Position numbers and translations under genes: made by a program. From assembly GCA_003218515.1 (NCBI GenBank), contig QHNT01000055.1, positions 10,644-74,643 of the forward strand: a stretch of DNA of 64,000 nucleotides, read 5' to 3'. The notes beneath the pieces were generated by a model. It had not been told where the DNA came from. It did no database searches and worked only from the letters and a program-made list of their open reading frames with translations. Shown in pieces: positions 17,750 to 45,426 of the stretch (position 1 is its first letter; each line of letters begins with the position of its first letter). The stretch comes from Verrucomicrobiota bacterium (GTDB lineage Bacteria; Verrucomicrobiota; Verrucomicrobiia; Limisphaerales; AV2).

Positions 17750-17783
17750 AAGACTCAGGTCACTCTCTGGCGGGAGGCTAAAG

Positions 17784-20700
17784 TCACTCGCTCGAGACAA
17801 GCTGCCGAGCTTCCTCATCCGTGAGCGCTTCAATTTCAGCGACGAGTTGCTCTTTGATACACTTTGAAAGTTCGGCGATCGTTGGTGCGTCAAACAGCGC
17901 TCTTACCGGCAGGTCGATCTGAAAAGCCTTGCGTAATTCGGATACGATCCGAATGGCAATAAGAGAGTGCCCTCCCAGTTGGGAAAAAGCGTCATGGATT
18001 CCTATTTCGTCAATCCCGAGCGCATCCTCCCAAACGCGAGCAATCTGTTGCTCGGTTTCATCACGCGGAGCGTCATATTGCGTTGGCAAACTGGGCCGCT
18101 GGGAAAGCGGCGATCGGGTCGGACCGGCTGCGTCCGCCAGTCCCGCTGGATTCAGCGACTCCAGGTTGATCCATTGCTTGATCCTTGCGGCCAGATCGCC
18201 GGTGGACACAACGAGTTGGCTGGCGGTCCTCACCGCCAGGACAGTTTCCATCATCGTCGTCGCTTCTTCGGCGCTCATGCCCAGTTCCTTGAGCGTTGTC
18301 CCGAGACCCGAACCAAACGCGGCTTGATCGTGAATGCGCCATACGTCCCAGTTCACACTCAGCCAACGAACGGGGGACGTCCGCTTATGCCTGCGCGCAA
18401 ACGAGTCCATGTAGATATTGGACGAGGCATAGGCGGCTTGCCCGATTCCTCCGAGAATGGATGTCAAAGAGGACAGCAGCAGGCAGAAGTCCAATGTTTT
18501 GCCCTTGAGTACGTCTTCCAACACAAGCAAGCCGTGCGCCTTGGCCTGAAAGTGCGAGTCGCAATTGTCATCGTTGCTGTCTTTGATTTCCCGATAGCCG
18601 TCCTCCCCGACGACGCCGGCCCCATGGATGACACCATGGAGGTTGCCAAAGCGTTGATACGCTTGCTCGATGGCGCCACGCATCGCGTTGACATCCGCCA
18701 CACTCGCGTTCACGTACAAAACCCTGCCGCCCAGTTTCTCGATCCTTTCGATGGTGCGGATTCTCGCGCTGACGGGATCATCAGCCGGGTGGCTGGCAAT
18801 CCATGTGTCCCAGGCTTTCCTGGCGGGGAGGCTGGAACGCCCCACCAACACCAGGCTGGCTCTGTACTTTTCGGCCAGGTATTCTGAAATTGCGACGCCG
18901 ATCCTGCCAAGTCCACCTGTGATCAGGTACACGCCGCCCTCTCGGAGGGACGATCGGGCTTGAGCGGTGTTGCCTGATACAACTGGCTCATAGGTCTGGA
19001 CCCAGCGCTGCGTGTTTCGATAGGCAACGAACAAGCTCGAATCAGAATCAAGAAATTCGCCAAAAACAAGATCCGCGGCTGATTCATGCTCACTGGCATG
19101 CTCAGAGACATCCACATCAATACTCTTCAGTCGGATATTTGGGTATTCCTGACGGATCACCATACACGGCCCCAGCAGCGTCGATTTTTCCGGGCATAGT
19201 GTTTCTGTGCCGCAGACCTCCTGGACGTTGTTGGAAAGGACGAACAGTTTGATCTCGTGTCCAACGTTGTGTGCGGCGAGTGCTTTGGCGAGAAAGAGCA
19301 GGCTGTAGAAGCCCAGAGCCTGCGCCTGTGCGAAAGTGCCGGCTTCCGGCTGGGCGGAAGGGATTCCGCTGACGCTCCACGCATGGACGATACGATTCGG
19401 CAGTGACTGGTTCGTCTGCAAGGCTCGGATCAACAAATCATAGTGTTGAGAGTTGGCTGGTTCGATTGTGAAACTGCGCGGGTCCGCTTGTCGAAAACCG
19501 CTGCCGGCCTTCACGGTAACCACGTTCTGACCGGCGGACTTTAATCGTGTGATCAAAACCGAGGTGAAACCACAGTCATTCGCATAGACCAGCCATGTTC
19601 TGGTTTTTTCCATCCGCAAAGCCGCCTCCTGGCTGCTGACGGTCATCGGCAAGAGACGTTTCCACGATGGCACGTATAACCATTGAGAAGTATCCGGGTT
19701 CTTTTGAACCGACACTTGTGGTTGCCGGCCCACGTCCGGAAGAGAAACCGGTTCCAGCCAGTGCTGCTGTCTTTCAAAGGGATAGGTCGGCAACGGAACT
19801 CTGCGCCGCTGTTCTCCAGAGTGCGCATTTTCCCACTTGATCCCGGCTCCTGACAGCCAGAGCCTGCCGATGCCGTGCCACAGAAATTCAACATCCGACT
19901 GGTTTTCATAATGGTGCCTGATCGAGGAAACCGCCACGGGGTCTCCGGCATCCTGCCGGTCGGGATGCTGCATAGCCAGCACGCCCAGCGTCCGACCGGG
20001 CCCCGCCTCCAGGAGAATGGGATTCTTGAACTGCCACAGCTCATGCAAGGCGTCGCTGAACCTGGCTGTGTGATTGGCATGCCTGGCCCAATAGGCAGGC
20101 TTGACAGCCTCGCGTGCTGTTATCCACGTCCCGGAGACGTTGGATATGTACGGAATTGTCGGCTCGTTCAATTGAATCTTGTTCACCTCCGCTTGAAATG
20201 CCGTCACGATCGGATCAAGCATTCTCGAATGAAAGGCATGGGCATTCTGAACGCGCCGACAAATGATGCTCTTTTCGTTCAGCATCCTCTCGAACTCGGC
20301 CACAGCCGCGACCGGACCGGCCACGACACACAAGCATGGACCGTTGATCAAAGAGATGGACAAATCTTCAGGGAGCAAGGGAAGCAATTTATTTTCCGGC
20401 AGGGTAACGGCAAGCATGGCTCCCTGAGGCAACTCATTGACCAGCCTGGCTCGCGTTGCAATCAGCCGCAACGCATTCTCCAGCGACAACACCCCAGCCA
20501 GACACGCCGCCACGTATTCACCCATGCTGTGGCCGACAATAGCGTCCGGGGTGACGCCCAACGATTGCCAGAGACGGCTCATCGCATATTCGATTGTGAA
20601 CAGCGCCGGCTGGGCAAACAGCGTCTGATTCAGATTCCCGGCGTCCTGATCCACCGGCGCATCGGTTTTTCGACCGAGCATCTGCTTTAAGTCAATTCCC

Positions 20701-22460
20701 TTGGGTTTACCCTCCTTCTTCCAGTTTTGGTTGTTCGGATAAATGATGTTCCGGATATCGACTCCCAGGCGCGACTCAAGAATATGCGAGCATCGATCAA
20801 CTTCCTGTTTGAAAATCGCCCATGTTTGATAGAGATCGTGGCCCATACCCACGTAGTGATCGCCGATGCCAGGCAATAGCAAGATCAACGGACGCCGGGC
20901 CGATTCGTCCGTCCGGCTGGAAAAGACTCGCTTCGAGCGTTCCTGGCCGAGGGCGGTGATCGCGTCCTCCCGGTCGGCACAGACCAGACACCGTCTGTGC
21001 GGAAAAGCCTTTCGTCCAATCTGCAAGGTGTAGGCCACGTCACTCATGTTCAATGAGCCGTTACGATTCAGAAACTCCCGCAACCGATGCGTGGCCTGAT
21101 CAAGCGCCGTTTCCGTCCTGGCCGACAGAATCAACAAGTGAGGAGCGGTGGCATTGGTCGATACCAGCGGTTCGGGCGCCTCCTCGAGGACGACATGGGC
21201 GTTCGTTCCGCCCATGCCCGTGGACATCACTCCTGCTCGCCTGGGGCCCTCGCTGGTCCATTCCCGCAGTCGCGTGTTTACGCAGAACGGGGTGCTCGGA
21301 AAATCGATCTCTGGATTGGGCTCGCTAAAGTGGAGACTCGGTGGAAGTTGTCGGTGCTTGAGGGCAAGGACGGTCTTTATGATGCCGGCGACTGCCGCCG
21401 CGGCGTCGAGGTGCCCGACATTGGTTTTTACCGAACCGATGGCGCAGTAGCCTGAACGCTGCGTAAAGGTGCGGAACGCTTTGGTCAAGGCTCTGATCTC
21501 AATGGGGTCCCCGACGGGCGTCCCCGAACCATGAGCCTCGAGATAGCTGATGCTGTCGGCCTCGACCCCGGCATTGGCCAGTGCCTCCACGACAGCGTCG
21601 GCCTGGCTGTTGACGCCGGGCGCGGTGTAACCGGCTTTTTCCGACCCATCGTTATTGACGGCCGAGCCCTTGATCACGGCATGAACGGTGTCGCCGTCTG
21701 AGAGTGCGTCTGCCAATCGTTTCAGCACCAGGATGCCGCCGCCGCTGCCGAAAACAGTGCCGTTTGCCCTGGCGTCAAACGCCCTGACGCGCCCGTCCGG
21801 AGAGACCACGCCGCCACCGTCAAAAAAGTAACCGGCACGATGAGGAACCCGCACTGAGATGGCCCCGGCCAGCGCCATATCCGTCTCTTCGCTCAAAAGA
21901 CTCTGGCGGGCCAGATGGACGGCGACCATGGAGGTCGAGCACGCGGTCTGAATCGTAATGCTCGGCCCCTTGAGATTCAGTTTGTAAGAAATCCGAGTAC
22001 TCAGAAAGTCTTTGTCGTTGCCGATGAGCGTGGGAATGTACTCCTCGGCCAGTCGGCTGTTCAGCCCGACGTTCGTGAAATACGTGTTCAGAGCCGCACC
22101 GGTGAACACGCCGATGCGTCCTTGATAGCGTTCCGGGTCACAGCCCGCGCTCTCGAGCGCCTCGTAAGACAGCTCCAACAAAATGCGGTGCTGTGGATCC
22201 ATGGTCCTGGCTTCCAGCGGCGAGAAACCGAAGAACCCCGCGTCAAAATGGCCAGGCTCCTCCAGGATTGGCGCCGCCTTCACATAGCTCGGATGGCTCA
22301 GGTAAGCTGCAGGCACGCCCGATTCCAGCATCTCCTGGTCTGTAAACCGGGTAATCGACTCAATGCCTTCGGCCAGGTTATGCCAGAACTCGTCGAGGTT
22401 GCGCGCGCCTGGAAAACGGCCGGACATCCCGACAATGGCGATATCGAACTCGTTGTTCAT
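17784..22460 (-). CDS. Type I PKS module KS-AT-KR-carrier protein
   Basis: KS has TACSTS, EAHGSGTPVGDP and GHLDAAAA. AT has GHSMGEYVAA and HAFHS (malonyl-type signature). KR has VYLITGGLGRIG...YASSNIY. The C-terminal carrier is FSQLGGHSLIAIRIV. Confidence 0.9.
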   Translation of the reverse strand: MNNEFDIAIVGMSGRFPGARNLDEFWHNLAEGIESITRFTDQEMLESGVPAAYLSHPSYVKAAPILEEPGHFDAGFFGFSPLEARTMDPQHRILLELSYEALESAGCDPERYQGRIGVFTGAALNTYFTNVGLNSRLAEEYIPTLIGNDKDFLSTRISYKLNLKGPSITIQTACSTSMVAVHLARQSLLSEETDMALAGAISVRVPHRAGYFFDGGGVVSPDGRVRAFDARANGTVFGSGGGILVLKRLADALSDGDTVHAVIKGSAVNNDGSEKAGYTAPGVNSQADAVVEALANAGVEADSISYLEAHGSGTPVGDPIEIRALTKAFRTFTQRSGYCAIGSVKTNVGHLDAAAAVAGIIKTVLALKHRQLPPSLHFSEPNPEIDFPSTPFCVNTRLREWTSEGPRRAGVMSTGMGGTNAHVVLEEAPEPLVSTNATAPHLLILSARTETALDQATHRLREFLNRNGSLNMSDVAYTLQIGRKAFPHRRCLVCADREDAITALGQERSKRVFSSRTDESARRPLILLLPGIGDHYVGMGHDLYQTWAIFKQEVDRCSHILESRLGVDIRNIIYPNNQNWKKEGKPKGIDLKQMLGRKTDAPVDQDAGNLNQTLFAQPALFTIEYAMSRLWQSLGVTPDAIVGHSMGEYVAACLAGVLSLENALRLIATRARLVNELPQGAMLAVTLPENKLLPLLPEDLSISLINGPCLCVVAGPVAAVAEFERMLNEKSIICRRVQNAHAFHSRMLDPIVTAFQAEVNKIQLNEPTIPYISNVSGTWITAREAVKPAYWARHANHTARFSDALHELWQFKNPILLEAGPGRTLGVLAMQHPDRQDAGDPVAVSSIRHHYENQSDVEFLWHGIGRLWLSGAGIKWENAHSGEQRRRVPLPTYPFERQQHWLEPVSLPDVGRQPQVSVQKNPDTSQWLYVPSWKRLLPMTVSSQEAALRMEKTRTWLVYANDCGFTSVLITRLKSAGQNVVTVKAGSGFRQADPRSFTIEPANSQHYDLLIRALQTNQSLPNRIVHAWSVSGIPSAQPEAGTFAQAQALGFYSLLFLAKALAAHNVGHEIKLFVLSNNVQEVCGTETLCPEKSTLLGPCMVIRQEYPNIRLKSIDVDVSEHASEHESAADLVFGEFLDSDSSLFVAYRNTQRWVQTYEPVVSGNTAQARSSLREGGVYLITGGLGRIGVAISEYLAEKYRASLVLVGRSSLPARKAWDTWIASHPADDPVSARIRTIERIEKLGGRVLYVNASVADVNAMRGAIEQAYQRFGNLHGVIHGAGVVGEDGYREIKDSNDDNCDSHFQAKAHGLLVLEDVLKGKTLDFCLLLSSLTSILGGIGQAAYASSNIYMDSFARRHKRTSPVRWLSVNWDVWRIHDQAAFGSGLGTTLKELGMSAEEATTMMETVLAVRTASQLVVSTGDLAARIKQWINLESLNPAGLADAAGPTRSPLSQRPSLPTQYDAPRDETEQQIARVWEDALGIDEIGIHDAFSQLGGHSLIAIRIVSELRKAFQIDLPVRALFDAPTIAELSKCIKEQLVAEIEALTDEEARQLVSSE

Positions 22461-22466: not shown

Positions 22467-24098
22467 TTATGAAGGACTCACCTGAATGACAGGTTCCGGC
22501 AAGGCCTTGCGATCCGCTTTCCCGCTCGGCGTCAACGGCATTTCATCGATTTTCTCAAAACGATTTGGGATCATGTAGTCGGGAAGGTGTTTTTTCAGGT
22601 AACGCTTCAGACCCTCAACCTCCAAGCCAGATTTGCAAACAAAGTAAGCGATAATGAGGATGATGTTCTCCGAGTACTCCTTGACCAGCGCAACGCAGTC
22701 GGTGATGCCCGGGTACTCCCTGATCGTGTTTTCGATCTCGCCCAGTTCGATCCGCAATCCCCGAATCTTTACCTGGTGATCCTCCCGGCCTAGATACTCG
22801 AGATTCCCGTCGGTCAGCCAGCGGGCGACGTCGCCGGTTCGATAAATCCTTTCACCGGGGTTGACAGGGTTGTCGGTGAACTTTTCATCGGTCAGGGCCG
22901 CGTTATTCAGGTAACCTCTGGCCAGACCGATCCCGGCAATGCACAATTCTCCGGGCTCACCGATCGCCACCTGCCGGCCGTCTCTGATGACGTAAAGCCT
23001 GGTGTTATGGATCGGTCGCCCGATTGGAATGTTGTCGAAATCATTTTGCGCGGGGCAATCGAAATAACTGACGTCCACCGTCGCCTCGGTGGGGCCGTAG
23101 AGGTTGGTCAGCCGGGCTCCGGTCTTGCTACCCCAAATGTCATTGAACTTTCTGACATGACTGGCAGTCAGCGCTTCACCGCTCGCAAATACCCGCCGAA
23201 CCGAAGCCAGGCTTCTCAGTCCGCAAGCAGACTTGCCATCCAAATACTCCAGAAACACGTTCAGCATGGATGGCACGAAGTGCATGACGCTGACGTGCTG
23301 TTTCTTGACGGTCTCAACAATGACCAAGGGATTCCTTTCTCCGCCTGGCATCAAGAAGCAGAGTTTGGCGCTCTGCAGTGCCCACCAGAAAAGCTCCCAC
23401 ACCGAGACATCAAAGTAGTAGGGCGTTTTTTGTAGCACGACGTCGTTTTCATCGATCGGGTAGGCTTGCTGCATCCAATGCAAGCGGTTGACCAGAGAGC
23501 GGTGCTCGATCATCACTCCCTTGGGTTTGCCGGTCGATCCGGAGGTATAGATCACGTACGCCAGATCGCGCGGCTTGTTGAGGATGGCGGGGTTCGCTGT
23601 TGAGCCACGGTAAGTGTCCAGATCGTCAAGATTGATGATCAGCCCTCCAAAACCGATCCGGCCGGCTGTCTTATTCTGCACCAACAGTATTTTGACTCCG
23701 CCATCCTTCAGCATGTAGTCGCTGCGCTCCGGCGGATTGTCCGGTGATACAGGCAGATAAGCCCCTCCGGCTTTTACGATCCCCAGGATGCCGATGATCA
23801 TGGCAAAGGATCGTTCCACCATCAACGCAACGATGTGTCCGGGCCGAACGCCCTCAGCCCTCAATAAGTGCGCCAGTTGATTGACCTTGTCATTGAGCTG
23901 CGCGTAAGTCAGGGATGGCACGCCGAAAACTTTGTCGTGGTCACAAAGGACGGCCGTTCCGAACAAATGTTTCTCGATCTGTGCCTCGATTAATTCTTGA
24001 AGAGTGACGTTATCCGGAAACGCCGCCTCCGTGCGGTTGAATTGAACGATCCTCGCCAGATCGGCTTCCGCAGCGGCGGGTGGAGGGTGAGCGGCCAT
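22467..24098 (-). CDS. Stand-alone NRPS-type adenylation enzyme, Ser-type specificity code
   Basis: YTSGSTGKPKG, NLYGPTEA, GELCIAG and YRTGD motifs, with no carrier domain. Specificity residues read by eye are D-V-W-H-F-S-L-V-D, the same as the EntF Ser code as I recall it. Confidence 0.85.
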   Translation of the reverse strand: MAAHPPPAAAEADLARIVQFNRTEAAFPDNVTLQELIEAQIEKHLFGTAVLCDHDKVFGVPSLTYAQLNDKVNQLAHLLRAEGVRPGHIVALMVERSFAMIIGILGIVKAGGAYLPVSPDNPPERSDYMLKDGGVKILLVQNKTAGRIGFGGLIINLDDLDTYRGSTANPAILNKPRDLAYVIYTSGSTGKPKGVMIEHRSLVNRLHWMQQAYPIDENDVVLQKTPYYFDVSVWELFWWALQSAKLCFLMPGGERNPLVIVETVKKQHVSVMHFVPSMLNVFLEYLDGKSACGLRSLASVRRVFASGEALTASHVRKFNDIWGSKTGARLTNLYGPTEATVDVSYFDCPAQNDFDNIPIGRPIHNTRLYVIRDGRQVAIGEPGELCIAGIGLARGYLNNAALTDEKFTDNPVNPGERIYRTGDVARWLTDGNLEYLGREDHQVKIRGLRIELGEIENTIREYPGITDCVALVKEYSENIILIIAYFVCKSGLEVEGLKRYLKKHLPDYMIPNRFEKIDEMPLTPSGKADRKALPEPVIQVSPS

Positions 24099-24118
24099 AT
24101 GAAATCAACCGGCTCCAG

Positions 24119-25288
24119 TCACTTGCCGAACCTGCCAGCTTGATCGACAAATATCTTCCCCAGAATGTCCTCATGGATCTGGGTGGTGCCTTCAATGATC
24201 TCCATAATCTTGGCATCACGGTAATACCGGGAAACCGGTGATGATCCGTGGCAGCCCGAGGCCCCCTTGATCTGAACGGCGTCAGACGCGGCTCTCACGG
24301 CGGCTCTCGACGTAAAATATTTAGCCATCAAGGTCTTTTCAAAGGCTTCCGGAAGATGACTGTCTTCCGCGCGGCAGGCGTTGTGGCATAAGAGACTCCC
24401 GGCCTCCAGATCGGTACCCATTCTGGCGATCAGTGATCGGACCATCCCCAGGTCTCCCACGGTTTTGTCACCAATCTTTCGTGTGCCCGCGTAGGCGATG
24501 CTTTCTTCAAAACATCCTCTCAGAAGCCCCAAGGCCGAGCAGGCCGTGCTGATTCTTCCATAGTGCAAACCCACCTGTGCGACGTGGGACAGGGCGAAAC
24601 CAGGTTTGCCAACGAGGTTGGCTGATGGCACTTCCACATCGTGAAAGTGAAGCTCGGCCAGACCGGCCGCACGGAACCCCATCAAATCGGAAATGGCTTC
24701 AATGTGAAGACCGGGAGTTTCTCTGGGCACCAAACACGCCGCCGAACGTTGGCCGAGTGTCCCAAACACCAGAAACACCGCGGCGAATTGGGCGCAGCTT
24801 ATCCATTTCTTGTGACCGTTCAGAAGAAGACAGTCACCTTTGGAATTCGGAGTGAATTCGGTGGTCAGGGATTGAAGGGCGCTACCAGCGCCCGGCTCCG
24901 TCAGCGCAAAGGCCCCGATCATCTCCCCCTTGGCCAGTGGAGGCAGCCATTTCCGCTTTTGCTCCGTCGTGCCCCATTTGAGCAGCGCCATGGAAACCAT
25001 GGCTTGGACCGTCACCACATCGGTCAAAGCGGACGATCCTCTCCCCAGGGCTTCATTGAGCAAATCAAACGTGACCGTGTCCCATCCTTGTCCAGCGTAC
25101 TCTCGTGGCAGGCTACAGCCCAGGTAACCGCGCTTTGCCAACTTGTCTATGACGGATTCAGGAAGTCTTTGCTCCCGATCCCACTGTTCGGCAAACGGTT
25201 CAACATCGAGCCTCACGAAGGACTTGAATTCTTCGTGCCGGCCCTTTTGCGCCCCAGTCAGCAGCTGTTGTCCCCCGCTCTTATCCAT
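24119..25288 (-). CDS. Acyl-CoA dehydrogenase-family enzyme (FkbI/ZmaI-like candidate acting on acyl-ACP)
   Basis: ATG at 25288 overlaps the ACP stop by 8 nt. ACAD fold sequence throughout (...GAFALTEPGAGS..., C-terminal ...YRDAKIMEIIEGTTQIHEDILGK). Confidence 0.8.
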   Translation of the reverse strand: MDKSGGQQLLTGAQKGRHEEFKSFVRLDVEPFAEQWDREQRLPESVIDKLAKRGYLGCSLPREYAGQGWDTVTFDLLNEALGRGSSALTDVVTVQAMVSMALLKWGTTEQKRKWLPPLAKGEMIGAFALTEPGAGSALQSLTTEFTPNSKGDCLLLNGHKKWISCAQFAAVFLVFGTLGQRSAACLVPRETPGLHIEAISDLMGFRAAGLAELHFHDVEVPSANLVGKPGFALSHVAQVGLHYGRISTACSALGLLRGCFEESIAYAGTRKIGDKTVGDLGMVRSLIARMGTDLEAGSLLCHNACRAEDSHLPEAFEKTLMAKYFTSRAAVRAASDAVQIKGASGCHGSSPVSRYYRDAKIMEIIEGTTQIHEDILGKIFVDQAGRFGK

Positions 25289-25544
25289 TCGGGTGCCCGT
25301 TCTTTTGCAGGACAAAAGCCGTCATCGCGTTCAGCGACTTGAAATTCTCGATGTCCAAATCGTCCGTTCCCACCTCGATGGCAAAGGTCTTTTCGATGAA
25401 CGTCATCAGTTGAACGGCAAACAGGGAATTGACGATTCCCGATTCAAACAGGTTGTCGTCGTCATCCAATTTCGCGATACTGATCGAGCTCGATATGAAA
25501 CGCTTGACGGTTTCTTTGATTCCTTTTTCGTCTGTAGTAGTCAT
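25281..25544 (-). CDS. Stand-alone acyl carrier protein
   Basis: 87 aa. ...DDDNLFESGIVNSLFAVQLMTFIE... has a phosphopantetheine Ser context (xNSL). Confidence 0.75.
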   Translation of the reverse strand: MTTTDEKGIKETVKRFISSSISIAKLDDDDNLFESGIVNSLFAVQLMTFIEKTFAIEVGTDDLDIENFKSLNAMTAFVLQKNGHPNG

Positions 25545-25783
25545 AGACTTTTCTGAATGATACCAACACCTTCGATTAGATGGTATGATCTACTTGGTTG
25601 GCGCTACTTTGATCAGTGCGAAATCCGCGTGAATCTTTGAGTCTCTTTGGAAAACCACCCTCGCAGGTCTCACGATCAGATGGCTTGTTGAGTGTTGAAA
25701 GGCAACCGCACATCGTTGCAAGCGCGGCTGCTGCCACGAACCTTGTGATGAACCTGGCGCCAATGATCCAGCGGAATCGGTAT

Positions 25784-26554
25784 CTAATGCGCGGAGCGCG
25801 CGGAGGATGAGGTTCGCGCATTTCGCGGCTTGCGCGTCACGCCGAGGTGGCCGACACGAGTGGGCCGAAGGTCGTGCTTCACGCAGAAGTCGTCCCAGGC
25901 GCCGTGGAGGTGCGTATCGTCGCTCATGAGCAGGCCCCCATGCTTAAGCCTGGGAAAGGCCTGCTCGAACTCGAACGACATATTTTCATAGGAATGATCG
26001 CTGTCGTGTAAAAAGATGTCCACGTGACCGAGGGTCCGCAGGAGGTCGGGCAAGAGCTTCCGCGAATCGCCAATCTGCAACTTCCAACGGAACCGCAGGG
26101 AATCAGGCACAATCCAACCGGACGCGCGCCCGTCCGGGAGCACTGAGCCCTGTTGGACGTTGGGCAGGTCAATCGAGTGCAGCGTGCCCGTGCCGTTCGC
26201 GGCAAGCGCCCGCAAAATGTGGGCCGACGAGAGGCCACTGGCAACCCCCGTTTCGACGATCACACCGGGTTTAATCGCGCGCACGACGGCATAGACCTCG
26301 GCCGTCTCGGGAAAGATGTAGGGGACATCGACAAGGCAGCGCTTGAGGTGCCCTTGAAACTCAGCGTCGTCGCGGAGCTCACGTCGGTAACGCATGACTT
26401 CGGCGTAGGGCAGACCCGCATGGTGTGCCAGGAGCACCCAACGGCGCAGGAGGTTCCACGCACCGCGCGGGTTAACGAAGGCGCGCCCAAAGTCATGAGC
26501 GAGCGACCACGCCGGGAACGATTGCTTCATTTGCTGAACATTGCTTAGTCTCAT
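25784..26554 (-). CDS. Class I SAM-dependent methyltransferase (O-methyltransferase-like)
   Basis: 256 aa. ...VIVETGVASGLSSAHILRAL... is a SAM-binding glycine-rich loop. ...DIFLHDSDHSYENM...HGGLLMSDD is typical of Methyltransf_24-like enzymes. Confidence 0.65.
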   Translation of the reverse strand: MRLSNVQQMKQSFPAWSLAHDFGRAFVNPRGAWNLLRRWVLLAHHAGLPYAEVMRYRRELRDDAEFQGHLKRCLVDVPYIFPETAEVYAVVRAIKPGVIVETGVASGLSSAHILRALAANGTGTLHSIDLPNVQQGSVLPDGRASGWIVPDSLRFRWKLQIGDSRKLLPDLLRTLGHVDIFLHDSDHSYENMSFEFEQAFPRLKHGGLLMSDDTHLHGAWDDFCVKHDLRPTRVGHLGVTRKPRNARTSSSARSAH

Positions 26555-26643
26555 TTCTTTTGCTCCTCTCGGATACAGTCAACTGCCTCGGCCCACGTCG
26601 CCTCGGCCGCTGACTTCATAGCTCTCACCTCGCGCGTTAAATC

Positions 26644-29600
26644 CTACGAAGCTTGTCGCCTCATTGTCTTATATCGCCTTTGCTGACCCCGCTGGGCGGC
26701 CCCCGCAGTTGTGGTCCCGACGCGGGCAACTCCAGACGTCGAATTCAATTTGGCGGCGAGAAGTGCCACCGTCGGGCACTCGAACAGACTGACAATTGAC
26801 AGATTCTGTTTCAGCTCCTTTTTGATCATGGCAATCACCTGGACGGCTCTGAGCGACGTTCCGCCCGCCTCAAAAAAGTTATCATTCATCCCGATTCGCG
26901 GCCTGCCCAAAACCTTTCTCCATATGTTAATGAGCGCGGCTTGCAGCGTGTTGCCCGGTGCGACGTCCGTCCGGGCATGGAGAGGTTGCTTCCCGAGCCG
27001 GTATTCCTCAATGGCCGTTGCAATCCGGTCGATATCGTACAGGTCCTCCCCAATCCGCTGCAGGCGCTCGGATCGGTCAGCGACGCCGAATCCCCATGCC
27101 GGGCGTGGCGCGAGTTTTTCCGGGTTGACGGTTGCCTGCATCTCGTGCCCGACCGGCGCCGTCGCGTCCGGATTGTATTCCACGCCTGCCAGGCATTCTG
27201 CTGGAAAGGTCCAGGACGTGCCGGCCTCGTTCCGATGCTGATCGCCGAGGTGGGTGAGGAACTCCAGTGCCGGCCGATTCTTTTCCGTCGGCAGATACCT
27301 GAGTTCTACAAATCTTTTTCCTTCCTTGACCGCCCGCCGGCCGAGTCGGGACACCACCGCGTGTTCCACTCCCCGGCCCAATACCCGGCAGCTCAGCAAC
27401 AAGGTGTCCACCTTGTAACGGTCAGCCTCCGTCCCATACATCACGACCCCGACGAGCCCATAATCCCCAAATCGATCCACCACGCGAACCACCAGACAAT
27501 GGGCGCCTTCACTCATCAGGAAGCGTTTGATGTCATTTTCCGAGCGCCGGATGGTGGTGAAGTTGAATTGATTTGTTCTGAACGTCAGTTGCGAGACACG
27601 GCCGAGTTGATTTTCAGTCGCTTCAGCAATCTCGACGCTGAGTTGCAGTCCTTTGACAAAATCCTTCAAGGAGAACGAACGCTCACGGAACTGCTGCCTT
27701 TCCGTGTTTTCCCGATACATCCTGGTGCGGTTTTGATCCTCCTGGGTCGCACCCGTGTGATCGAACGCCCAAATATGATTCAGGAACGCAGGGAACAATT
27801 CGGCGTTCCGCGGCAATTGCAGCGCCAAAACGCCGGGGCAGTTGATCCTGACATCCGCGCAATCAACCGGGTTGTCATCCATGAAAAAGAAACTGTCCAG
27901 CCCAAGATTGAGCTCGTTCGCGAGCGATTTGATGTTTCCCGACTTGCTGTTCCAATTGATGCGCCACGAAACCAGGTGCTCGCGTTTCAGGAGCATATCG
28001 GTTCGTTGATCAAAGACGTCCTGCGCATCCTTTTCATTGTTCTTGCTGCACAGACAGAGCAGCATACCGGCGTGCAATTGACCGATCATGAATTCCTGCA
28101 ACGCGCGGTAAGGCGCAGTCAGTTCAATTCCCCAGGGACCATCCTCACCGCAAACCCCTTTCCAAAGCGTGTTGTCGCAGTCCAACACGATCACTTTGAA
28201 TGGGCTCCCTTTCAGGTTGAAGAGGGTTCGGACGAGCGCGGTCCCGATCGCGGCGTAACACTCCGGTGTGTACGGGATATGACCCGCATGATGACTATGT
28301 GGATCGTAATAGTCGTTGACCGGATAGCGCTGCAACAGCGCCGCCGAACTGATGGTGTGAACATTCGCTATTCTGGCCGCTTCTGATAACAAGGACTCCT
28401 CGGCATCGCTCAATGCCGCCTTCAGTTCCGCATCGGCTTCCGCGGCCGGGGTGCTTGGACAGAAACACAGGACCAGAGGTACCGCAGCCTGATTCATGAG
28501 CGAGCGCAGCGCCGCGCAGAACTCCCCGACGGTTCGTTGCAAACTGGCAACGCTCTGGCCCGTTTGACGCGTTCCATTGAGGCAGTCCCCTCTCCCTTTC
28601 TCCCTGTCCCCATTAGATGGGGAGAGGGATGGGGTGAGGGGTTTGCTGCCGGCCTCGCCCCGGGTTGCGTAAAGATTAAACAATCCGGAATGCTCGAGCA
28701 GTTTTTCGTGTTCGACGGCGCAACGGTACCCCCGCTCGCTCAGCAACTTTTCAATCCGCTTGACCGCCTCGCCAGTGCGGTCGTGAATTTCGATCACGAT
28801 CTGATCGATTTTCGGCCAGTCGCGGTCGTCGATGCCCTGAATGATGTCCAGCTCGCTTTTCTCCGCATCAATCTTGAGGAGATCGATTTTGTCGATCTGA
28901 TTGTCCTGGATAATGTCCGACACCGAGGTCAAGCGGCACTCGTGGGTCCTGCGGCGGAGCCTGTCGGCGGTGAGTTCATTGACGTATTCCTCCACGGATT
29001 CTCCTGCGACCGATTCGTTGTTCAGCATGTTCCGCACGACCGTTTGAATGGCCTCGCGATCCTCGTTTTCATCCGAATGAAAACCGGAGAAGACCGAGGA
29101 TTTTTCATAAAAGGTAAACGTCGCGGTCCGGGGCTTGTCCGACACGCCGGCGTTCAAGGCCCGGACATTCGATCCGTAGGCATCGCAGTTTGCCTTCAAC
29201 AGGTCATACACAACCGGAGCCGGTTCGAAGGCGAAAATGTTTGGGTTGGCACAGCGGCTCATCACGAACAGCGAAAAGAGCCCGATGTTCGCCCCGATAT
29301 CCACCACGGTCGCCCCGTCCCGCAGGCGGATGCCATGCCTCAAATAGCATTCATCCTCAAAAACCTCCTTGTAAACATAGTCCGTCTCATACCGGTTCAA
29401 ATGAACAATTTCCAGGCCATTCGGCAGGACGTATCTCGGACGATCGCCGAAGCATGGCTTTAACCTTTCCTGGTTGAGCGTCAGGACGGCAGACCGATGC
29501 TCTCCGGCCCATTCCTCCAACCTCAAGAGGACAACGTTGACCCCGTCGCGGTTCTTGCGAAACGCACTGCCCGCGTCCAGCAACTGCTGAAAGATCTGGT

Positions 29601-30711
29601 TGTAGGGCGCAAATTCGAGATGGATTGGAACGCCGAAATGGTCGCCCCAGAATTTCAGCGAATCTTCCATTGGCTCGGCGGTGAAATTGGCAGCGATGAC
29701 GACGTGGGCTGCCTTCTTTTCGTCGGCAGCGTCAACGCGGTCCAGTAAGGTGAAGGCGACGCCCGAGAGTTCCACATACGGTTTGCCCCCCTGGTCGAAA
29801 ACGCGAACGTTGCCGACAAGACCCCTCTCCCTTTCTCCCTCTCCCCATCGGACGGGGAGAGGGACGGGGTGAGGGGCATCCTGCGCCTGCAGGGTTGCGT
29901 GACCCCACAGCGTATCGGGGAAATTGACGTCGGTTACTTCGATCTTCTCAATCGATCGCAAGACGAAGGTCTTCCCCTTCTCCATGATGAAGGGCGCCAG
30001 CAACTGAGTTATCGAATCCAGCAGACTTGGGTGCAAGTCATGTGCCTCGATTTCGCCAGCCTGGCGCGCCACGGAAAGTTTTCCCAGGGATTGATCGCCC
30101 GTGCGCCAAATCGCGGAGATGTTTTGAAAGCGGGACCCGTATTGGTTGCCATTGTCACGCAGCTTTTTGTAAAAATGTTCCGAGTCGATCACGGCATGAG
30201 ACTGCGCCTGGAATGCTTCGATGGAAAACGGTTCGGTGCCCGCTCCCGGAAACGTTGATGGATTCCGGTCAATTTCGAGCTTGGCGGCAAATTGGCGGAC
30301 GGGAGGCCGGGCGCTGCCATCCCCGACATCTGCTTCGTAGAACGTGTACTCAACCGGCCCGCCGCTGTTGTCCCTGACTTCGATCCTGATGACGGTATCC
30401 TCTGCCGAAAGAATGATGGGGGTTTGGAAGGTCACGTTTCGTACGAGGCCCGGAACGCGCTTAAAAAGTTCGCGATACCCAACCAGGGCCAGGTGAATAT
30501 AGAAGGACCCCGGCAGCACGATCATGTCCTGAAAACCGTGATCAGCCAAATACGGCACGGAACGAACACCGATCCTGAATTCCGCGGAGGCTGCCAGCGG
30601 CCGATCCGTGGGGAAACTGACACTGTGTATCGAGGCGGCTTCAGGAGCCCACTTGCGAGGAGAGGATGGATCGTGGCCCATCAAATCAGAAGAATTTGCG
30701 CATGCTTTCAC
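26644..30711 (-). CDS. Multidomain loading enzyme: PKS-type dehydratase - FkbH N-region interrupted by an FkbM-family methyltransferase - HAD-IIIC (FkbH) - GNAT-like - carrier protein
   Basis: DH has YLADHGFQDMIVLPGSFY and LHPSLLDSITQLL. FkbM has VVDIGANIGLFSLF...FAFEP...IDLLKIDAEKSELD. FkbH/HAD has KVIVLDCDNTLWKGVCGEDG...LCSKNNEKD. GNAT-like region has VVDRFGDYGLVGV...LLLSCRVLGRGVEH. C-terminal carrier is FFEAGGTSLRAVQVI. Confidence 0.85.
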   Translation of the reverse strand: MKACANSSDLMGHDPSSPRKWAPEAASIHSVSFPTDRPLAASAEFRIGVRSVPYLADHGFQDMIVLPGSFYIHLALVGYRELFKRVPGLVRNVTFQTPIILSAEDTVIRIEVRDNSGGPVEYTFYEADVGDGSARPPVRQFAAKLEIDRNPSTFPGAGTEPFSIEAFQAQSHAVIDSEHFYKKLRDNGNQYGSRFQNISAIWRTGDQSLGKLSVARQAGEIEAHDLHPSLLDSITQLLAPFIMEKGKTFVLRSIEKIEVTDVNFPDTLWGHATLQAQDAPHPVPLPVRWGEGERERGLVGNVRVFDQGGKPYVELSGVAFTLLDRVDAADEKKAAHVVIAANFTAEPMEDSLKFWGDHFGVPIHLEFAPYNQIFQQLLDAGSAFRKNRDGVNVVLLRLEEWAGEHRSAVLTLNQERLKPCFGDRPRYVLPNGLEIVHLNRYETDYVYKEVFEDECYLRHGIRLRDGATVVDIGANIGLFSLFVMSRCANPNIFAFEPAPVVYDLLKANCDAYGSNVRALNAGVSDKPRTATFTFYEKSSVFSGFHSDENEDREAIQTVVRNMLNNESVAGESVEEYVNELTADRLRRRTHECRLTSVSDIIQDNQIDKIDLLKIDAEKSELDIIQGIDDRDWPKIDQIVIEIHDRTGEAVKRIEKLLSERGYRCAVEHEKLLEHSGLFNLYATRGEAGSKPLTPSLSPSNGDREKGRGDCLNGTRQTGQSVASLQRTVGEFCAALRSLMNQAAVPLVLCFCPSTPAAEADAELKAALSDAEESLLSEAARIANVHTISSAALLQRYPVNDYYDPHSHHAGHIPYTPECYAAIGTALVRTLFNLKGSPFKVIVLDCDNTLWKGVCGEDGPWGIELTAPYRALQEFMIGQLHAGMLLCLCSKNNEKDAQDVFDQRTDMLLKREHLVSWRINWNSKSGNIKSLANELNLGLDSFFFMDDNPVDCADVRINCPGVLALQLPRNAELFPAFLNHIWAFDHTGATQEDQNRTRMYRENTERQQFRERSFSLKDFVKGLQLSVEIAEATENQLGRVSQLTFRTNQFNFTTIRRSENDIKRFLMSEGAHCLVVRVVDRFGDYGLVGVVMYGTEADRYKVDTLLLSCRVLGRGVEHAVVSRLGRRAVKEGKRFVELRYLPTEKNRPALEFLTHLGDQHRNEAGTSWTFPAECLAGVEYNPDATAPVGHEMQATVNPEKLAPRPAWGFGVADRSERLQRIGEDLYDIDRIATAIEEYRLGKQPLHARTDVAPGNTLQAALINIWRKVLGRPRIGMNDNFFEAGGTSLRAVQVIAMIKKELKQNLSIVSLFECPTVALLAAKLNSTSGVARVGTTTAGAAQRGQQRRYKTMRRQAS
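28587..28641. repeat. GC-rich palindromic repeat element (REP/MITE-like core), in frame inside the loading-enzyme gene
   Basis: cccctctccctttctccctgtcccc-attagat-ggggagagggatggggtgagggg. Translated on the minus strand as ...PLTPSLSPSNGDREKGRG... Confidence 0.8.
29822..29875. repeat. Second copy of the GC-rich palindromic element, same plus-strand orientation, different reading frame
   Basis: cccctctccctttctccctctcccc-atcggac-ggggagagggacggggtgagggg. Translated on the minus strand as ...PHPVPLPVRWGEGERERG... Confidence 0.8.
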
Positions 30712-36743: not shown

Positions 36744-37490
36744 TCAAGATTTTATCAGCACCCCGAGATAATGGCTGCGCAAGAACAGCAAAGAGGCAAG
36801 CCAAGGGTATAACAGGTCTGTAAGACAGCCCGCCCGCCGGGCCAGCGGCGGCAGCAAAGTGACCGTCATCAGACGCGAATCATACTCCGGAAACAATCTG
36901 CGAACTCCTTTGCGTGAAATGCCTCGCACATGTGGATTAAACGGGTTGTTCATTCGAAAGTCATACCAGACGACCGCCCCGCCGGAGCGCAGGATGCGGT
37001 TGATTTCCCGACTGACGTTGCGCGCCATCTGATGATCGCGAATCGAAGTGAACACTGTAAACAATGCGACCAAATCAAAAAAGCCGTTTGCGAACGGCAA
37101 CGCCTCGGCATTGGCCTCTTGAAACGTCATCTCCGGGAAATTGTCCTTTGCGCGTCGGATGCGCTCTGCCAGCAAATCAACGCCGAAAAGATTTTCCGGC
37201 CTGGCCCCCCACGCCTCGAAGCCGGCCAAAATTTCGCCCGTGCCGCAACCCACATCCAAAATGCGCCGGTTACCCAGCGGGAGAAAACCCGCGCGTTGCA
37301 GCAACTGTTCCAGCTTTCGGTCGCGTTCCTGTTGGATGGCTTGATTGCCTCGGTTTGTGACCGCCCATTTCTTTTTGCCCCAGCCGCGTTCACCATATTG
37401 CCGGTAAACGTCCTTAAGGCGATCGACTTCGAAGTGGGTTTCCATGCGGCTCTCCAGATTCCATCGGCTGCCGTCCTTTGAAATCAGCAT
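36744..37490 (-). CDS. Class I SAM-dependent methyltransferase
   Basis: ILDVGCGTGEILAGF SAM motif. Start is either ATG 37490 or ATG 37445 (the latter preceded by GGAGAG). The longer ORF to 37961 overlaps the GT2 gene. Confidence 0.7.
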   Translation of the reverse strand: MLISKDGSRWNLESRMETHFEVDRLKDVYRQYGERGWGKKKWAVTNRGNQAIQQERDRKLEQLLQRAGFLPLGNRRILDVGCGTGEILAGFEAWGARPENLFGVDLLAERIRRAKDNFPEMTFQEANAEALPFANGFFDLVALFTVFTSIRDHQMARNVSREINRILRSGGAVVWYDFRMNNPFNPHVRGISRKGVRRLFPEYDSRLMTVTLLPPLARRAGCLTDLLYPWLASLLFLRSHYLGVLIKS

Positions 37491-45418: not shown

Positions 45419-45426
45419 AAGAGCTG

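What the first reader, a model, noticed from the sequence alone, without database searches (positions are those of the whole stretch)
26644..30711. Unusual loading megaenzyme: PKS dehydratase + FkbH whose N-terminal region is split by an FkbM methyltransferase + carrier protein
The domain order read from motifs is as follows. First, DH (YLADHGFQDMIVLPG; LLDSITQLL). Second, the first part of the FkbH N-region (...FTAEPMEDSLKFWGDHFGVPIHLEFAPYNQIFQQLLDAGSAF...VVLLRLEEW). Third, an FkbM-family methyltransferase (VVDIGANIG...IDLLKIDAEKSE). Fourth, the rest of the FkbH N-region (...VPLVLCFCPS...GHIPYTPECYAAIG). Fifth, the HAD-IIIC core (VLDCDNTLWKG), then a GNAT-like part, then the carrier (GGTSL). 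FkbH enzymes load a glyceryl unit from 1,3-bisphosphoglycerate onto an ACP, as in methoxymalonyl-ACP and tetronate pathways. A DH-KR-FkbH-ACP loading module is proposed for the bryostatin lactate starter. A DH plus an embedded FkbM-type methyltransferase suggests a modified C3 starter, for example an O-methylated and/or dehydrated glycerate. That chemistry is inference only. I do not recall this architecture being described.
Basis: partly seen in the sequence, partly recalled or inferred. Interest (0 to 1): 0.68.

Follow-up and report, generated by a model that had tools for sequence, protein, structure and literature searches.

The report
Free-standing methoxyacrylyl starter-loading enzyme
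This gene encodes a four-part enzyme (dehydratase, methyltransferase, glycerate loader, carrier) of a type already reported at the start of the oocydin, phormidolide and gynuellalide assembly lines, so it is a real but not a new kind of enzyme.

Summary
Window 26644-30711 (- strand) is one intact 1355-aa ORF with the domain order PKS dehydratase, FkbM-type methyltransferase, FkbH (HAD phosphatase plus a GNAT-like part carrying the conserved Cys), and carrier protein. The methyltransferase does interrupt the alpha/beta domain that precedes the FkbH core. Relatives without the methyltransferase, and the solved structure 3slr, have that domain in one piece.

The architecture is not undescribed. 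OocJ module 1 is published as DH-MT-FkbH-ACP and GynD as DH-FkbM-FkbH-ACP. The same domain set in the phormidolide synthase is stated to make a 2-methoxyacrylyl starter. GynD aligns colinearly with this protein, with the methyltransferase at the same place.

All catalytic motifs are conserved in 167 relatives. The most likely function is therefore to convert 1,3-bisphosphoglycerate into 2-methoxyacrylyl-S-ACP.

What differs here is context. The module is a free-standing protein in a conserved, orphan cis-AT PKS/NRPS cluster that also carries a serine-activating A domain, an ACP and an acyl-CoA dehydrogenase. This cluster is common in soil metagenomes. I found no paper that describes the methyltransferase as an insertion inside the FkbH N-domain. 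Verdict: new member of a known kind, modest interest.

The parts
26644..30711 (-). Whole ORF, 1355 aa: DH, N-domain part 1, FkbM methyltransferase, N-domain part 2, FkbH core, ACP
   Evidence: same architecture in at least 120 homologue clusters
29734..30576 (-). PKS dehydratase, double hot-dog (residues 46-326). Catalytic His58 in LADHGFQDMIVLPG; Asp232/Gln236 in LLDSITQLL
   Evidence: Pfam PF21089 and PF14765. Best PDB matches are CurF/CurK/CurJ dehydratases. His58 present in 157/157 non-gap sequences, Asp232 in 166/167
29500..29706 (-). N-domain part 1 (residues 336-404): strand-helix-strand-helix-strand, ending in VVLLRLEEW
   Evidence: Aligns to the N-terminus of MT-less FkbH-like proteins. 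pLDDT 83-96. Its second half is part of the contiguous match to 3slr
28642..29487 (-). FkbM-family SAM methyltransferase inserted in the N-domain (residues ~409-690; SAM motif VVDIGANIG at 469-477)
   Evidence: PF05050 and TIGR01444. D471, G473, A474, N475 and G477 invariant in 167 sequences, the other four positions nearly so. Folded unit at residues 414-684 in the model
28587..28640 (-). 54-nt palindromic repeat element inserted in frame in the MT-to-N2 linker (encodes ...PLTPSLSPSNGDREKGRG...)
   Evidence: The encoded peptide falls in the only segment with pLDDT below 50 (model 357-384 = residues 687-714)
29822..29875 (-). Second copy of the same palindromic element, in frame within the sequence matched by the dehydratase model (encodes PHPVPLPVRWGEGERERG)
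   Evidence: Absent from the 90%-identical homologue P0001
28198..28551 (-). N-domain part 2 (residues 721-838): long helix, then strand/helix repeats leading into the HAD domain
   Evidence: Contiguous with part 1 in 3slr
27238..28197 (-). FkbH core (residues 839-1158): HAD-IIIC phosphatase with D844-x-D846-x-T848, then a GNAT-like part with invariant S1107-C1108-R1109
   Evidence: TIGR01686 304 bits and TIGR01681. Motifs invariant. Foldseek hits to 3slr and to GNATs
26752..26937 (-). Carrier protein (residues 1259-1320), phosphopantetheine site Ser1286 in GGTSL
   Evidence: PF00550. Ser1286 invariant
26647..26700 (-). Conserved basic C-terminal tail (RGQQRRYKTMRRQAS), a possible docking peptide
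   Evidence: Seen in all homologue sequences read. The docking function is inference only
25784..26554 (-). Neighbour: class I methyltransferase (Methyltransf_24). Present in L002 and L003, replaced in L008
25281..25544 (-). Neighbour: discrete 87-aa acyl carrier protein
   Evidence: Conserved in synteny
24119..25315 (-). Neighbour: acyl-CoA dehydrogenase family protein (FkbI/ZmaI-like)
22467..24098 (-). Neighbour: stand-alone amino-acid adenylation domain, predicted to activate serine
   Evidence: TIGR01733 438 bits. Specificity code DVWSFSLVDK. The best hits that cover a single A domain are Txo2, tyrocidine synthase 1, GrsA, Txo1, a fuscachelin A domain and EntF
17784..22460 (-). Neighbour: cis-AT PKS module KS-AT-KR-ACP. 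KS has Cys-His-His; AT has GHSMGE and HAFH
10529..17893 (-). Neighbours: NRPS C-A-PCP-C, a frameshift near nt 13305, then A-PCP (the A domain starts at 13308 in another frame), then a TubC-type docking domain plus thioesterase (10529-11575)

Best explanation
The protein is a free-standing loading module of the DH-MT-FkbH-ACP type. It most likely makes 2-methoxyacrylyl-S-ACP, in these steps.
1. The HAD part of FkbH takes D-1,3-bisphosphoglycerate and removes the 3-phosphate.
2. The glyceryl group passes through a thioester on Cys1108, in the GNAT-like part, to the phosphopantetheine arm on Ser1286 of the fused carrier.
3. The FkbM-type methyltransferase, which sits as an insertion in a loop of the FkbH N-terminal alpha/beta domain, O-methylates the 2-hydroxyl using SAM.
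4. The N-terminal PKS dehydratase (His58/Asp232) eliminates the 3-hydroxyl.

The product is an enol ether that cannot tautomerise to pyruvoyl. The order of steps 3 and 4 is not known.

Shown here: the domain composition, the insertion topology, the conservation of all catalytic motifs, the colinear homology to GynD, and the conserved gene neighbourhood.

Inferred: the substrate, the site of methylation, the product and the hand-over partner.
For: - Domain hits are above the curated cutoffs.
- Catalytic residues of all four domains are conserved in 167 family members. These are DH His58, Asp232 and Gln236; five of the nine MT motif I positions invariant and the other four nearly so; HAD D844 and D846 invariant and T848 in 166 of 167; Cys1108; and ACP Ser1286.
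- GynD (P0322, WP_044617471.1) is annotated DH-FkbM-FkbH-ACP-KS.... It matches query residues 331-1165 in a single stretch and is 34.7% identical over 1190 colinear residues. It has the DH motifs HxxxGxxxxP and DxxxQ.
- The related DH-KR-FkbH-ACP architecture is listed for the spliceostatin PKS SxcD (supplement of PMC7930024). From my own knowledge, that module type is assigned a lactyl starter in bryostatin and FR901464, which would give a precedent for a dehydratase acting on glyceryl-ACP.
- Characterised FkbM-family enzymes are O-methyltransferases (my own knowledge).
- Synteny with a KS-AT-KR-ACP module is conserved in loci binned to four phyla. That KS has an intact Cys-His-His triad.
Against: - No biochemistry exists for this protein or its close family.
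- The 2-methoxyacrylyl assignment in phormidolide and oocydin is itself a proposal based on collinearity. The earlier oocydin paper regarded the OocJ DH and MT as lacking conserved motifs, and the module as non-functional (PMC4552970).
- Here the module is not fused to a KS. In the window three genes (methyltransferase, ACP and ACAD), followed by a serine A domain, lie between it and the PKS, so a second carrier-bound unit competes for the starter role.
- In every related locus the gene is followed by FkbK-, FkbJ- and FkbI-like genes. That is the classical company of an FkbH that makes an extender unit.
Confidence: 0.62

Rival explanations
1. Extender-unit supplier. FkbH loads glyceryl onto a carrier. 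The neighbouring FkbK-like dehydrogenase (present in relatives) and the FkbI-like ACAD oxidise it to hydroxymalonyl-ACP. A methyltransferase then makes methoxymalonyl-ACP for the PKS module. The dehydratase would be vestigial or would act elsewhere.
For: All seven related loci encode a 3-hydroxyacyl-CoA dehydrogenase immediately after the gene, then an ACP and an ACAD. Window proteins (ACP, ACAD) and the relatives' dehydrogenase match canonical FkbK-FkbJ-FkbI-FkbH cassettes in myxobacterial loci L031 and L060 at 35-52% identity. The best PDB match of the AT domain is ZmaA-AT at 222 bits; from my own knowledge, ZmaA-AT is specific for hydroxymalonyl-ACP.
Against: - The AT carries the malonyl signature HAFH where ZmaA has GAAH (the meaning of the signature is my own knowledge).
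- The dehydratase catalytic residues are conserved across 167 sequences, which argues that it is used.
- The discrete ACP, ACAD and dehydrogenase are paired with a serine-type A domain. From my own knowledge, that combination matches the zwittermicin ZmaG/H/I/J aminomalonyl-ACP cassette, which would explain those genes without FkbH.
- The window itself has no FkbK-like gene.
- The homologous fused modules in GynD and OocJ are loading modules.
Confidence: 0.15
2. O-methylglyceryl loader. The module stops at 2-O- or 3-O-methylglyceryl-ACP, like the O-methylglycerate units of aeruginosin-type peptides. The dehydratase would be inactive on this substrate, or would act in trans on the beta-hydroxy product of the KR-containing PKS module.
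For: OMT plus FkbH loading modules that give methylated glycerate are proposed for BslA of the suomilide pathway (PMC13122637). Many relatives have N1-MT-N2-FkbH-CP without any detectable dehydratase (16 of 145 cores). The methyltransferase-interrupted FkbH therefore works without a dehydratase. The downstream module has a KR but no DH.
Against: The dehydratase is fused N-terminally in 57 of 145 related cores with intact His and Asp. The same fusion occurs in GynD and OocJ, and the phormidolide synthase is stated to have the same domain set. Phormidolide carries a dehydrated methoxyvinyl terminus (structure from my own knowledge).
Confidence: 0.13
3. Artefact. The ORF is an assembly or gene-calling fusion of separate DH, methyltransferase and FkbH genes, or a decaying pseudogene.
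For: The local cluster shows damage. There is a frameshift near nt 13305, a second C domain lacking HHxxxDG, and no FkbK-like gene. Two repeat elements are inserted in the ORF.
Against: The ORF is uninterrupted over 1355 codons. At least 120 independent homologue clusters have the same architecture at 61-99% identity, and 57 more distant representatives do as well. The repeat insertions are in frame; one lies in a disordered linker and the other within the dehydratase region.
Confidence: 0.03

Closest known systems
Loading modules OocJ module 1 (oocydin), the first phormidolide PKS module and GynD module 1 (gynuellalide): DH-MT(FkbM)-FkbH-ACP
   Same: Same four domains in the same order. For GynD, the methyltransferase is inserted at the same point of the FkbH N-domain (single-stretch match), the identity is 34.7% over 1190 residues, and the DH motifs are present. 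Published product: a 2-methoxyacrylyl starter.
   Different: Those modules are the N-terminus of giant trans-AT PKS proteins and are followed directly by a KS. Here the module is a separate 1355-aa protein. The partner PKS has its own AT domain and lies four genes downstream. The product is unknown. The OocJ and phormidolide sequences themselves were not available to align.
DH-KR-FkbH-ACP loading modules (bryostatin BryA, FR901464/spliceostatin; SxcD listed)
   Same: An N-terminal PKS dehydratase combined with FkbH and ACP. Dehydration of glyceryl-ACP is the proposed first tailoring step (my own knowledge).
   Different: A ketoreductase takes the place of the methyltransferase, giving a lactyl rather than a methoxyacrylyl starter. 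No KR is present in this protein.
Stand-alone FkbH / OzmB / Tmn16-type glyceryl-ACP loaders and the FkbGHIJK methoxymalonyl-ACP pathway
   Same: FkbH core above the TIGR01686 cutoff, with the DxDxT motif and the conserved Cys. ACP and ACAD neighbours are present, and an FkbK-like gene is present in relatives.
   Different: This protein additionally has a fused dehydratase, an embedded methyltransferase and a fused carrier. The AT signature is malonyl-type. The window has no FkbK-like gene.
NRPS modules that use FkbH in place of an A domain (vioprolide, corramycin, cystomanamide: C-FkbH-T; BslA: OMT, FkbH, PCP, ST)
   Same: The N-domain plus FkbH core plus carrier unit is the same. Many metagenomic relatives are C-N1-(MT)-N2-FkbH-CP. 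An O-methylated glycerate is proposed for BslA.
   Different: Those modules have no dehydratase, the unit is joined by a condensation domain, and the glycerate stays hydrated.
BF1531 N-terminal fragment, PDB 3slr
   Same: The only solved relative. The N-domain and the HAD domain align contiguously (E 6.6e-45; Foldseek E 1.8e-17, target-normalised TM-score 0.62).
   Different: No methyltransferase insertion, dehydratase or carrier. Its function is uncharacterised.
Interrupted adenylation domains of NRPSs (a methyltransferase embedded inside an A domain)
   Same: A methyltransferase is inserted into a loop of the substrate-loading domain, so that loading and methylation share one carrier. This analogy is from my own knowledge. 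A-MT-CP arrangements are also seen in P0333.
   Different: The host domain here is the non-catalytic N-domain of FkbH, not an A domain.

Membership tests
DH-MT-FkbH-ACP 2-methoxyacrylyl loading module (OocJ1 / phormidolide / GynD1 type) | Domain order: PKS DH, FkbM-type MT, FkbH, ACP in one polypeptide | tested here: met
   Published architectures
DH-MT-FkbH-ACP 2-methoxyacrylyl loading module (OocJ1 / phormidolide / GynD1 type) | Colinear sequence homology to a published member, including the position of the methyltransferase | tested here: met
   GynD (P0322): one stretch covering query 9-828 of the 835-aa query; 34.7% identity over 1190 aa
DH-MT-FkbH-ACP 2-methoxyacrylyl loading module (OocJ1 / phormidolide / GynD1 type) | Catalytic residues of DH, MT, HAD, Cys and ACP Ser are intact | tested here: met
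   (167 sequences)
DH-MT-FkbH-ACP 2-methoxyacrylyl loading module (OocJ1 / phormidolide / GynD1 type) | Module is fused to the first KS of a trans-AT PKS | tested here: not met
   The ORF ends after the ACP. The partner PKS has an AT domain and is a separate gene
DH-MT-FkbH-ACP 2-methoxyacrylyl loading module (OocJ1 / phormidolide / GynD1 type) | Product is 2-methoxyacrylyl-S-ACP, or a methoxyvinyl terminus in the metabolite | not testable with these tools
   Needs in vitro loading and mass spectrometry, or isolation of the metabolite
FkbH family (TIGR01686, glyceryl transferase/phosphatase) | Score above the curated cutoff; HAD DxDxT motif; conserved Cys in SCRVLGR | tested here: met
   304.4 bits against 146.65. 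D844, D846 and C1108 invariant and T848 in 166 of 167
FkbH family (TIGR01686, glyceryl transferase/phosphatase) | Uses 1,3-bisphosphoglycerate and forms glyceryl-S-ACP | not testable with these tools
   Biochemical assay required
FkbM family methyltransferase (TIGR01444 / PF05050) | Score above the cutoff and SAM-binding motif I | tested here: met
   89.8 bits against 37.7; 63.6 bits against 22.7. In VVDIGANIG, D471, G473, A474, N475 and G477 are invariant and the other four positions nearly so
DH-KR-FkbH-ACP lactyl loading module (BryA / FR901464 type) | Ketoreductase domain between DH and FkbH | tested here: not met
   No KR or SDR hit in the protein. A methyltransferase occupies that position
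Methoxymalonyl-ACP pathway (FkbG, H, I, J, K) | FkbK-type 3-hydroxyacyl-CoA dehydrogenase in the cluster | tested here: not met
   No tblastn match in the window. It is present in all seven related loci
Methoxymalonyl-ACP pathway (FkbG, H, I, J, K) | AT domain specific for an ACP-linked (hydroxy/methoxy)malonyl extender | tested here: inconclusive
   The best PDB hit is ZmaA-AT, but the signature is HAFH (malonyl type) against GAAH in ZmaA
Aminomalonyl-ACP cassette (ZmaG/H/I/J type), for the neighbouring genes only | Serine-activating A domain, discrete ACP, ACAD and 3-hydroxyacyl-CoA dehydrogenase | tested here: inconclusive
   The A domain (code DVWSFSLVDK), ACP and ACAD are present. The dehydrogenase is present only in relatives. 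No Zma sequences were available for direct comparison

The most novel reading that the evidence does not exclude
The free-standing DH-MT-FkbH-ACP protein may be the core of a widespread, uncharacterised soil-bacterial pathway. The other parts would be the FkbK-like dehydrogenase, the ACP, the ACAD and the serine A domain (an aminomalonyl-type cassette), plus a single KS-AT-KR-ACP module and a thioesterase. The pathway would join a 2-methoxyacrylyl starter to a serine-derived carrier-bound unit. The product would be a small methoxyvinyl-bearing amino-acid-like metabolite of a class not yet isolated. The minimal version is seen in L003, where the PKS is followed directly by the thioesterase.

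Separately, the methyltransferase inserted inside the FkbH N-domain would be a first documented 'interrupted FkbH', analogous to interrupted A domains.
Probability: 0.25. Interest if true: 0.55.

Novelty: new member of a known kind. Interest (0 to 1): 0.3.

Why it matters
The module type is already in the literature, so the architecture itself adds little. Three modest points remain.

1. In at least one published member (GynD) and in more than 80 metagenomic representatives, the methyltransferase of this module type is an insertion in a loop of the FkbH N-terminal domain. It is not a separate bead on the string. This matters for domain-boundary choices in engineering, and for annotation tools that currently label these proteins 'FkbH-like protein/FkbM family methyltransferase'.

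2. The module also exists as a free-standing protein serving a cis-AT PKS/NRPS. That makes it a compact candidate for in vitro study of how the methoxyvinyl starter is made. This chemistry has so far only been proposed.

3. The conserved orphan cluster is abundant in soil metagenomes and has no known product.

Tried and rejected
- Assembly fusion: rejected, because more than 120 independent homologues share the architecture.
- Link to the upstream polysaccharide genes (glycosyltransferases, Wzy, AsnB, deacetylases): rejected as part of the system. None of those genes is found next to the gene in L004, L005, L009 or L010. They are syntenic only in the 87%-identical locus L007.
- AMP-binding neighbour as a fatty acyl-AMP ligase, as in vioprolide or corramycin: rejected. 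It is an amino-acid adenylation domain (TIGR01733) with a serine-like code.
- Proline-to-pyrrole system (A, PCP, ACAD): considered. RedW- and PigA-type models score far below their cutoffs and the code is serine-like, so it is not favoured.
- Neighbour-joining tree of 145 FkbH cores, to ask whether the methyltransferase insertion arose once: the architecture classes were interspersed and the tree was not informative.
- The phormidolide gene-cluster paper (PMC4878910, doi 10.1002/cbic.201500467) is not held. Its content is cited only through PMC6174933 and PMC7930024.
- A direct check of N1-N2 packing in the model was not possible, because coordinates and PAE are not exposed. It is inferred from the secondary-structure order, the high pLDDT of the 70-residue N1 fragment and the contiguous match to 3slr.
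- MAFFT with mixed architectures aligned the MT-less N1 segments after the methyltransferase, following the MT-first protein P0338. That alignment was therefore not used to define the insertion boundaries.

Full report
**1. The observation**

Window 26644-30711 on the minus strand is a single open reading frame of 1355 codons.

Pfam finds a PKS dehydratase (PF21089 at residues 46-125, PF14765 at 165-326), an FkbM methyltransferase (PF05050 at 471-664) and a carrier domain (PF00550 at 1259-1320). NCBIfam adds the FkbH domain TIGR01686 at 839-1158 with 304 bits against a cutoff of 147. It also finds the HAD-IIIC model at 839-955, and TIGR01444 (FkbM family) at 468-643.

Two stretches have no model: residues 327-467 and 665-838.

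**2. Is the N-region really split?**

Four lines of evidence agree.

- A 503-aa Paenibacillus FkbH-like protein without a methyltransferase aligns its residues 13-78 to query 336-401. Its residues 168-495 align to query 792-1126.
- In Paenibacillus loci L041, L048 and L052, tblastn places the first flank directly before the second flank and the FkbH core, with nothing between them.
- I aligned 41 members of this family with 51 MT-less 'HAD-IIIC family phosphatase / FkbH-like' proteins. Positions on both flanks are at least 90% conserved across both groups. Examples are F13, P17, W25, P39, Y40, Q42, E69 and W71 before the methyltransferase, and P415, P422, Y466, D473 and P483 after it.
- A profile of that alignment matches the solved structure 3slr (BF1531 N-terminal fragment) at E 6.6e-45. 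The match is one contiguous stretch, chain 50-378. It runs through the second half of the first flank, the whole second flank and the HAD domain.

An AlphaFold2 model of residues 331-1165 (mean pLDDT 85.6) gives the following order:
- strand-helix-strand-helix-strand for the first flank (pLDDT 83-96);
- a folded methyltransferase at model residues 84-354;
- one disordered linker at 357-384;
- a long helix and further strand/helix units;
- the HAD domain;
- a mixed alpha/beta C-terminal part.

Foldseek finds 3slr first (E 1.8e-17, target-normalised TM-score 0.62). It also finds GNAT acetyltransferases for the C-terminal part.

I could not inspect coordinates, so the physical packing of the two flanks is inferred, not seen.

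**3. It is not an artefact and not rare**

The word-indexed search returned at least 120 clusters at 61-99% identity with the same Pfam content and a length of about 1300 aa. They come from JGI, ENA, NCBI and Logan assemblies.

The exhaustive search of 50%-identity representatives, using residues 331-1165 as the query, found 7941 proteins at E <= 1e-30. I classified the top 150 with the window's own domain pieces and then extracted 145 FkbH cores from them.

| Architecture around the FkbH core | Cores (of 145) |
|---|---|
| DH, then MT-interrupted N-domain, then FkbH (includes the window protein itself) | 57 |
| Interrupted form without a detected DH | 16 |
| Interrupted form with about 280 unassigned N-terminal residues (8 of them followed by KS domains) | 14 |
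| MT before the N-domain | 8 |
| MT after FkbH | 3 |
| No MT | 37 |
| Other or partial arrangements | 10 |

In the first three rows, 87 cores (86 besides the window protein) have the interrupted form. The interrupted FkbH is thus a common building block. It is found free-standing, at the head of NRPSs, after condensation domains, and at the head of AT-less PKSs.

**4. The architecture is already published**

One of the KS-fused representatives, P0322, is WP_044617471.1 of Gynuella sunshinyii. The supplement of Helfrich et al. [quoted passage not shown]

Its N-terminus shows the dehydratase motifs (LMNHQVKGEAIFPAVGY; ILDAAVQCVL). It matches query residues 331-1165 as one stretch. It is 34.7% identical to the window protein over 1190 colinear residues.

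Matilla et al. 2015 describe the first module of OocJ as 'DH-MT-FkbH-ACP' (PMC4552970). In the papers I could search, I found no statement that the methyltransferase lies inside the FkbH N-domain.

**5. Mechanism**

In 167 aligned family members the following are conserved:
- dehydratase His58 (157 of 157 non-gap sequences), Asp232 (166 of 167) and Gln236;
- methyltransferase motif I, VVDIGANIG, with five of its nine positions invariant;
- HAD D844-x-D846-x-T848 (both aspartates invariant);
- Cys1108 in SCRVLGR;
- carrier Ser1286.

All four activities therefore appear to be under selection.

The best-supported path is this. FkbH converts 1,3-bisphosphoglycerate to glyceryl-S-ACP through the Cys thioester. 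This step rests on established FkbH/OzmB chemistry, which I recall rather than tested. The methyltransferase then methylates the 2-hydroxyl, and the dehydratase removes the 3-hydroxyl. The result is 2-methoxyacrylyl-S-ACP.

The methylated substrate is a beta-hydroxyacyl-ACP with an alpha substituent, which is what PKS dehydratases normally handle. This point is inference. The order of methylation and dehydration, and the site of methylation, are not shown.

**6. Context**

On the same strand, downstream of the gene, lie:
- a Methyltransf_24 protein (25784-26554);
- an 87-aa ACP (25281-25544);
- an acyl-CoA dehydrogenase (24119-25315);
- a stand-alone adenylation domain (22467-24098);
- a KS-AT-KR-ACP module (17784-22460);
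- an NRPS (C-A-PCP-C, then A-PCP);
- a TubC-type docking domain fused to a thioesterase.

The order 'this gene, ACP, ACAD, A domain, KS-AT-KR-ACP' is conserved in MAG loci labelled Burkholderiales, Acidobacteria, Verrucomicrobia and Ignavibacteria. The NRPS part varies between loci. In L003 the PKS is followed directly by the thioesterase.

The A domain is an amino-acid adenylation domain (TIGR01733). Its specificity code is DVWSFSLVDK, one residue away from the EntF serine code. The GrsA reference positions and the EntF code are from my memory. Among the solved matches that cover a single A domain, Txo2 scores highest; Txo1 and EntF follow, interleaved with tyrocidine synthase 1, GrsA and a fuscachelin A domain.

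All seven related loci also carry a 3-hydroxyacyl-CoA dehydrogenase gene directly after this gene. As I recall it, dehydrogenase plus ACP plus ACAD plus serine A domain is the composition of the zwittermicin aminomalonyl-ACP cassette. The window has no such dehydrogenase.

The AT resembles ZmaA-AT most closely among solved structures, but it has the malonyl-type HAFH where ZmaA has GAAH. The KS has its Cys-His-His triad.

The upstream polysaccharide genes are not conserved next to the gene in other loci. I treat them as neighbours only.

**7. Rivals**

- Extender-unit supplier (methoxymalonyl type). The FkbK/J/I-like neighbours favour it. Against it are the conserved dehydratase, the serine A domain that accounts for those neighbours, the HAFH signature and the loading role of the homologous fused modules.
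- O-methylglyceryl product with the dehydratase idle or acting elsewhere. The DH-less relatives, and the BslA proposal for suomilides, keep this open.
- Assembly fusion. This is excluded.

**8. State of this copy**

The NRPS shows a frameshift near nt 13305 between its second C domain and the next A domain. That C domain has lost the HHxxxDG motif. Together with the missing dehydrogenase, this suggests either assembly errors or a decaying cluster in this genome. The gene of interest is itself intact.

**9. Verdict**

This is a real, well-conserved multi-domain enzyme and a new free-standing member of a published module type. The insertion topology is a small addition to what is published. The product of the surrounding orphan cluster is unknown.

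Noticed in passing
window 28587-28640 and 29822-29875 (- strand, inside the ORF); core palindrome also at 62506-62532 and 62611-62637: A ~54-nt G/C-rich palindromic element (CCCTCACCCCRTCCCTCTCCCC...GGGGASAGGGAGAAAGGGAGAGGGG) is inserted twice in frame in the gene. One copy lies within the sequence matched by the dehydratase model and one in the disordered MT-to-N2 linker. Its core palindrome occurs twice more, inside a DnaE-like gene (62007-63980), after the helix-hairpin-helix domain. None is expected by chance. The 90%-identical homologue P0001 lacks the first copy, and P0049 carries similar peptides elsewhere. It looks like a small mobile repeat that is tolerated in protein linkers.
   Followed up: partly
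window 25545-26643, compared with L002, L003, L004, L006, L008, L009, L010: Every related locus has a 3-hydroxyacyl-CoA dehydrogenase (FkbK/ZmaG-like) gene directly after the DH-MT-FkbH-ACP gene. The window has none. The interval is variable: dehydrogenase plus Methyltransf_24 in L002 and L003; a stand-alone FkbM-like methyltransferase plus dehydrogenase plus a remnant of the Methyltransf_24 gene in L008; Methyltransf_24 only in the window.
   Followed up: yes
window 12761-13461: The NRPS ORF (12761-17893) and the next ORF (11512-13461) overlap by about 700 nt in different frames. The second C domain ends at about nt 13304 and the next A domain starts at 13308 in another frame. After that point the NRPS frame reads Arg-rich nonsense. 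This indicates a frameshift, either real or an assembly error.
   Followed up: partly
window about 14210-14240 (NRPS residues about 1219-1229): The second condensation domain has an internal deletion of about 50 residues and lacks the HHxxxDG catalytic motif. The first C domain has HHIVADG.
   Followed up: partly
window 22467-25544: A stand-alone A domain with a serine-like code (DVWSFSLVDK), an 87-aa ACP and an acyl-CoA dehydrogenase form a conserved trio. With the dehydrogenase present in relatives, it resembles the zwittermicin aminomalonyl-ACP cassette, as far as I recall that system. Its role next to a glycerate-derived starter is unexplained.
   Followed up: partly
window 19971-20903 (AT domain of the PKS): The closest solved structure is ZmaA-AT (4qbu, 222 bits); from my own knowledge, ZmaA-AT is specific for hydroxymalonyl-ACP. 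The window's AT has GHSMGE and HAFH where ZmaA has GYSFGE and GAAH, so its extender specificity is ambiguous.
   Followed up: partly
window 26647-26700 and 10529-11575: The protein ends in a basic tail (RGQQRRY..MRR.AS). The tail is conserved in all homologues read, including the Ignavibacteria one. The cluster's thioesterase carries a TubC-type N-terminal docking domain. The two could form a docking pair, but this was not tested.
   Followed up: no
L002, L003, L004, L008, L009, L010 compared with window 21380-22040 (KS active-site region): A 220-residue stretch of the KS is 88-95% identical between the window and MAGs labelled Acidobacteria, Burkholderiales, Verrucomicrobiae and beta proteobacterium. 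This is far more than expected across phyla. It suggests recent horizontal transfer of the cluster, or mis-binning.
   Followed up: no
L017, L023, L032 (Paenibacillus), about 9755-15300: In these loci an FkbH N-domain (both halves adjacent, directly after a condensation domain) lies about 4 kb upstream of the FkbH core hit. Either something large separates the N-domain from the core, or the N-domain occurs on its own.
   Followed up: no
window 36744-48520: A polysaccharide locus lies upstream on the same strand. It contains GT4 glycosyltransferases, a Wzy-type polymerase/ligase, a glutamine-dependent asparagine synthase homologue, polysaccharide deacetylases and DUF2334. It is adjacent to the PKS/NRPS cluster but not syntenic with it in other genomes.
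   Followed up: partly
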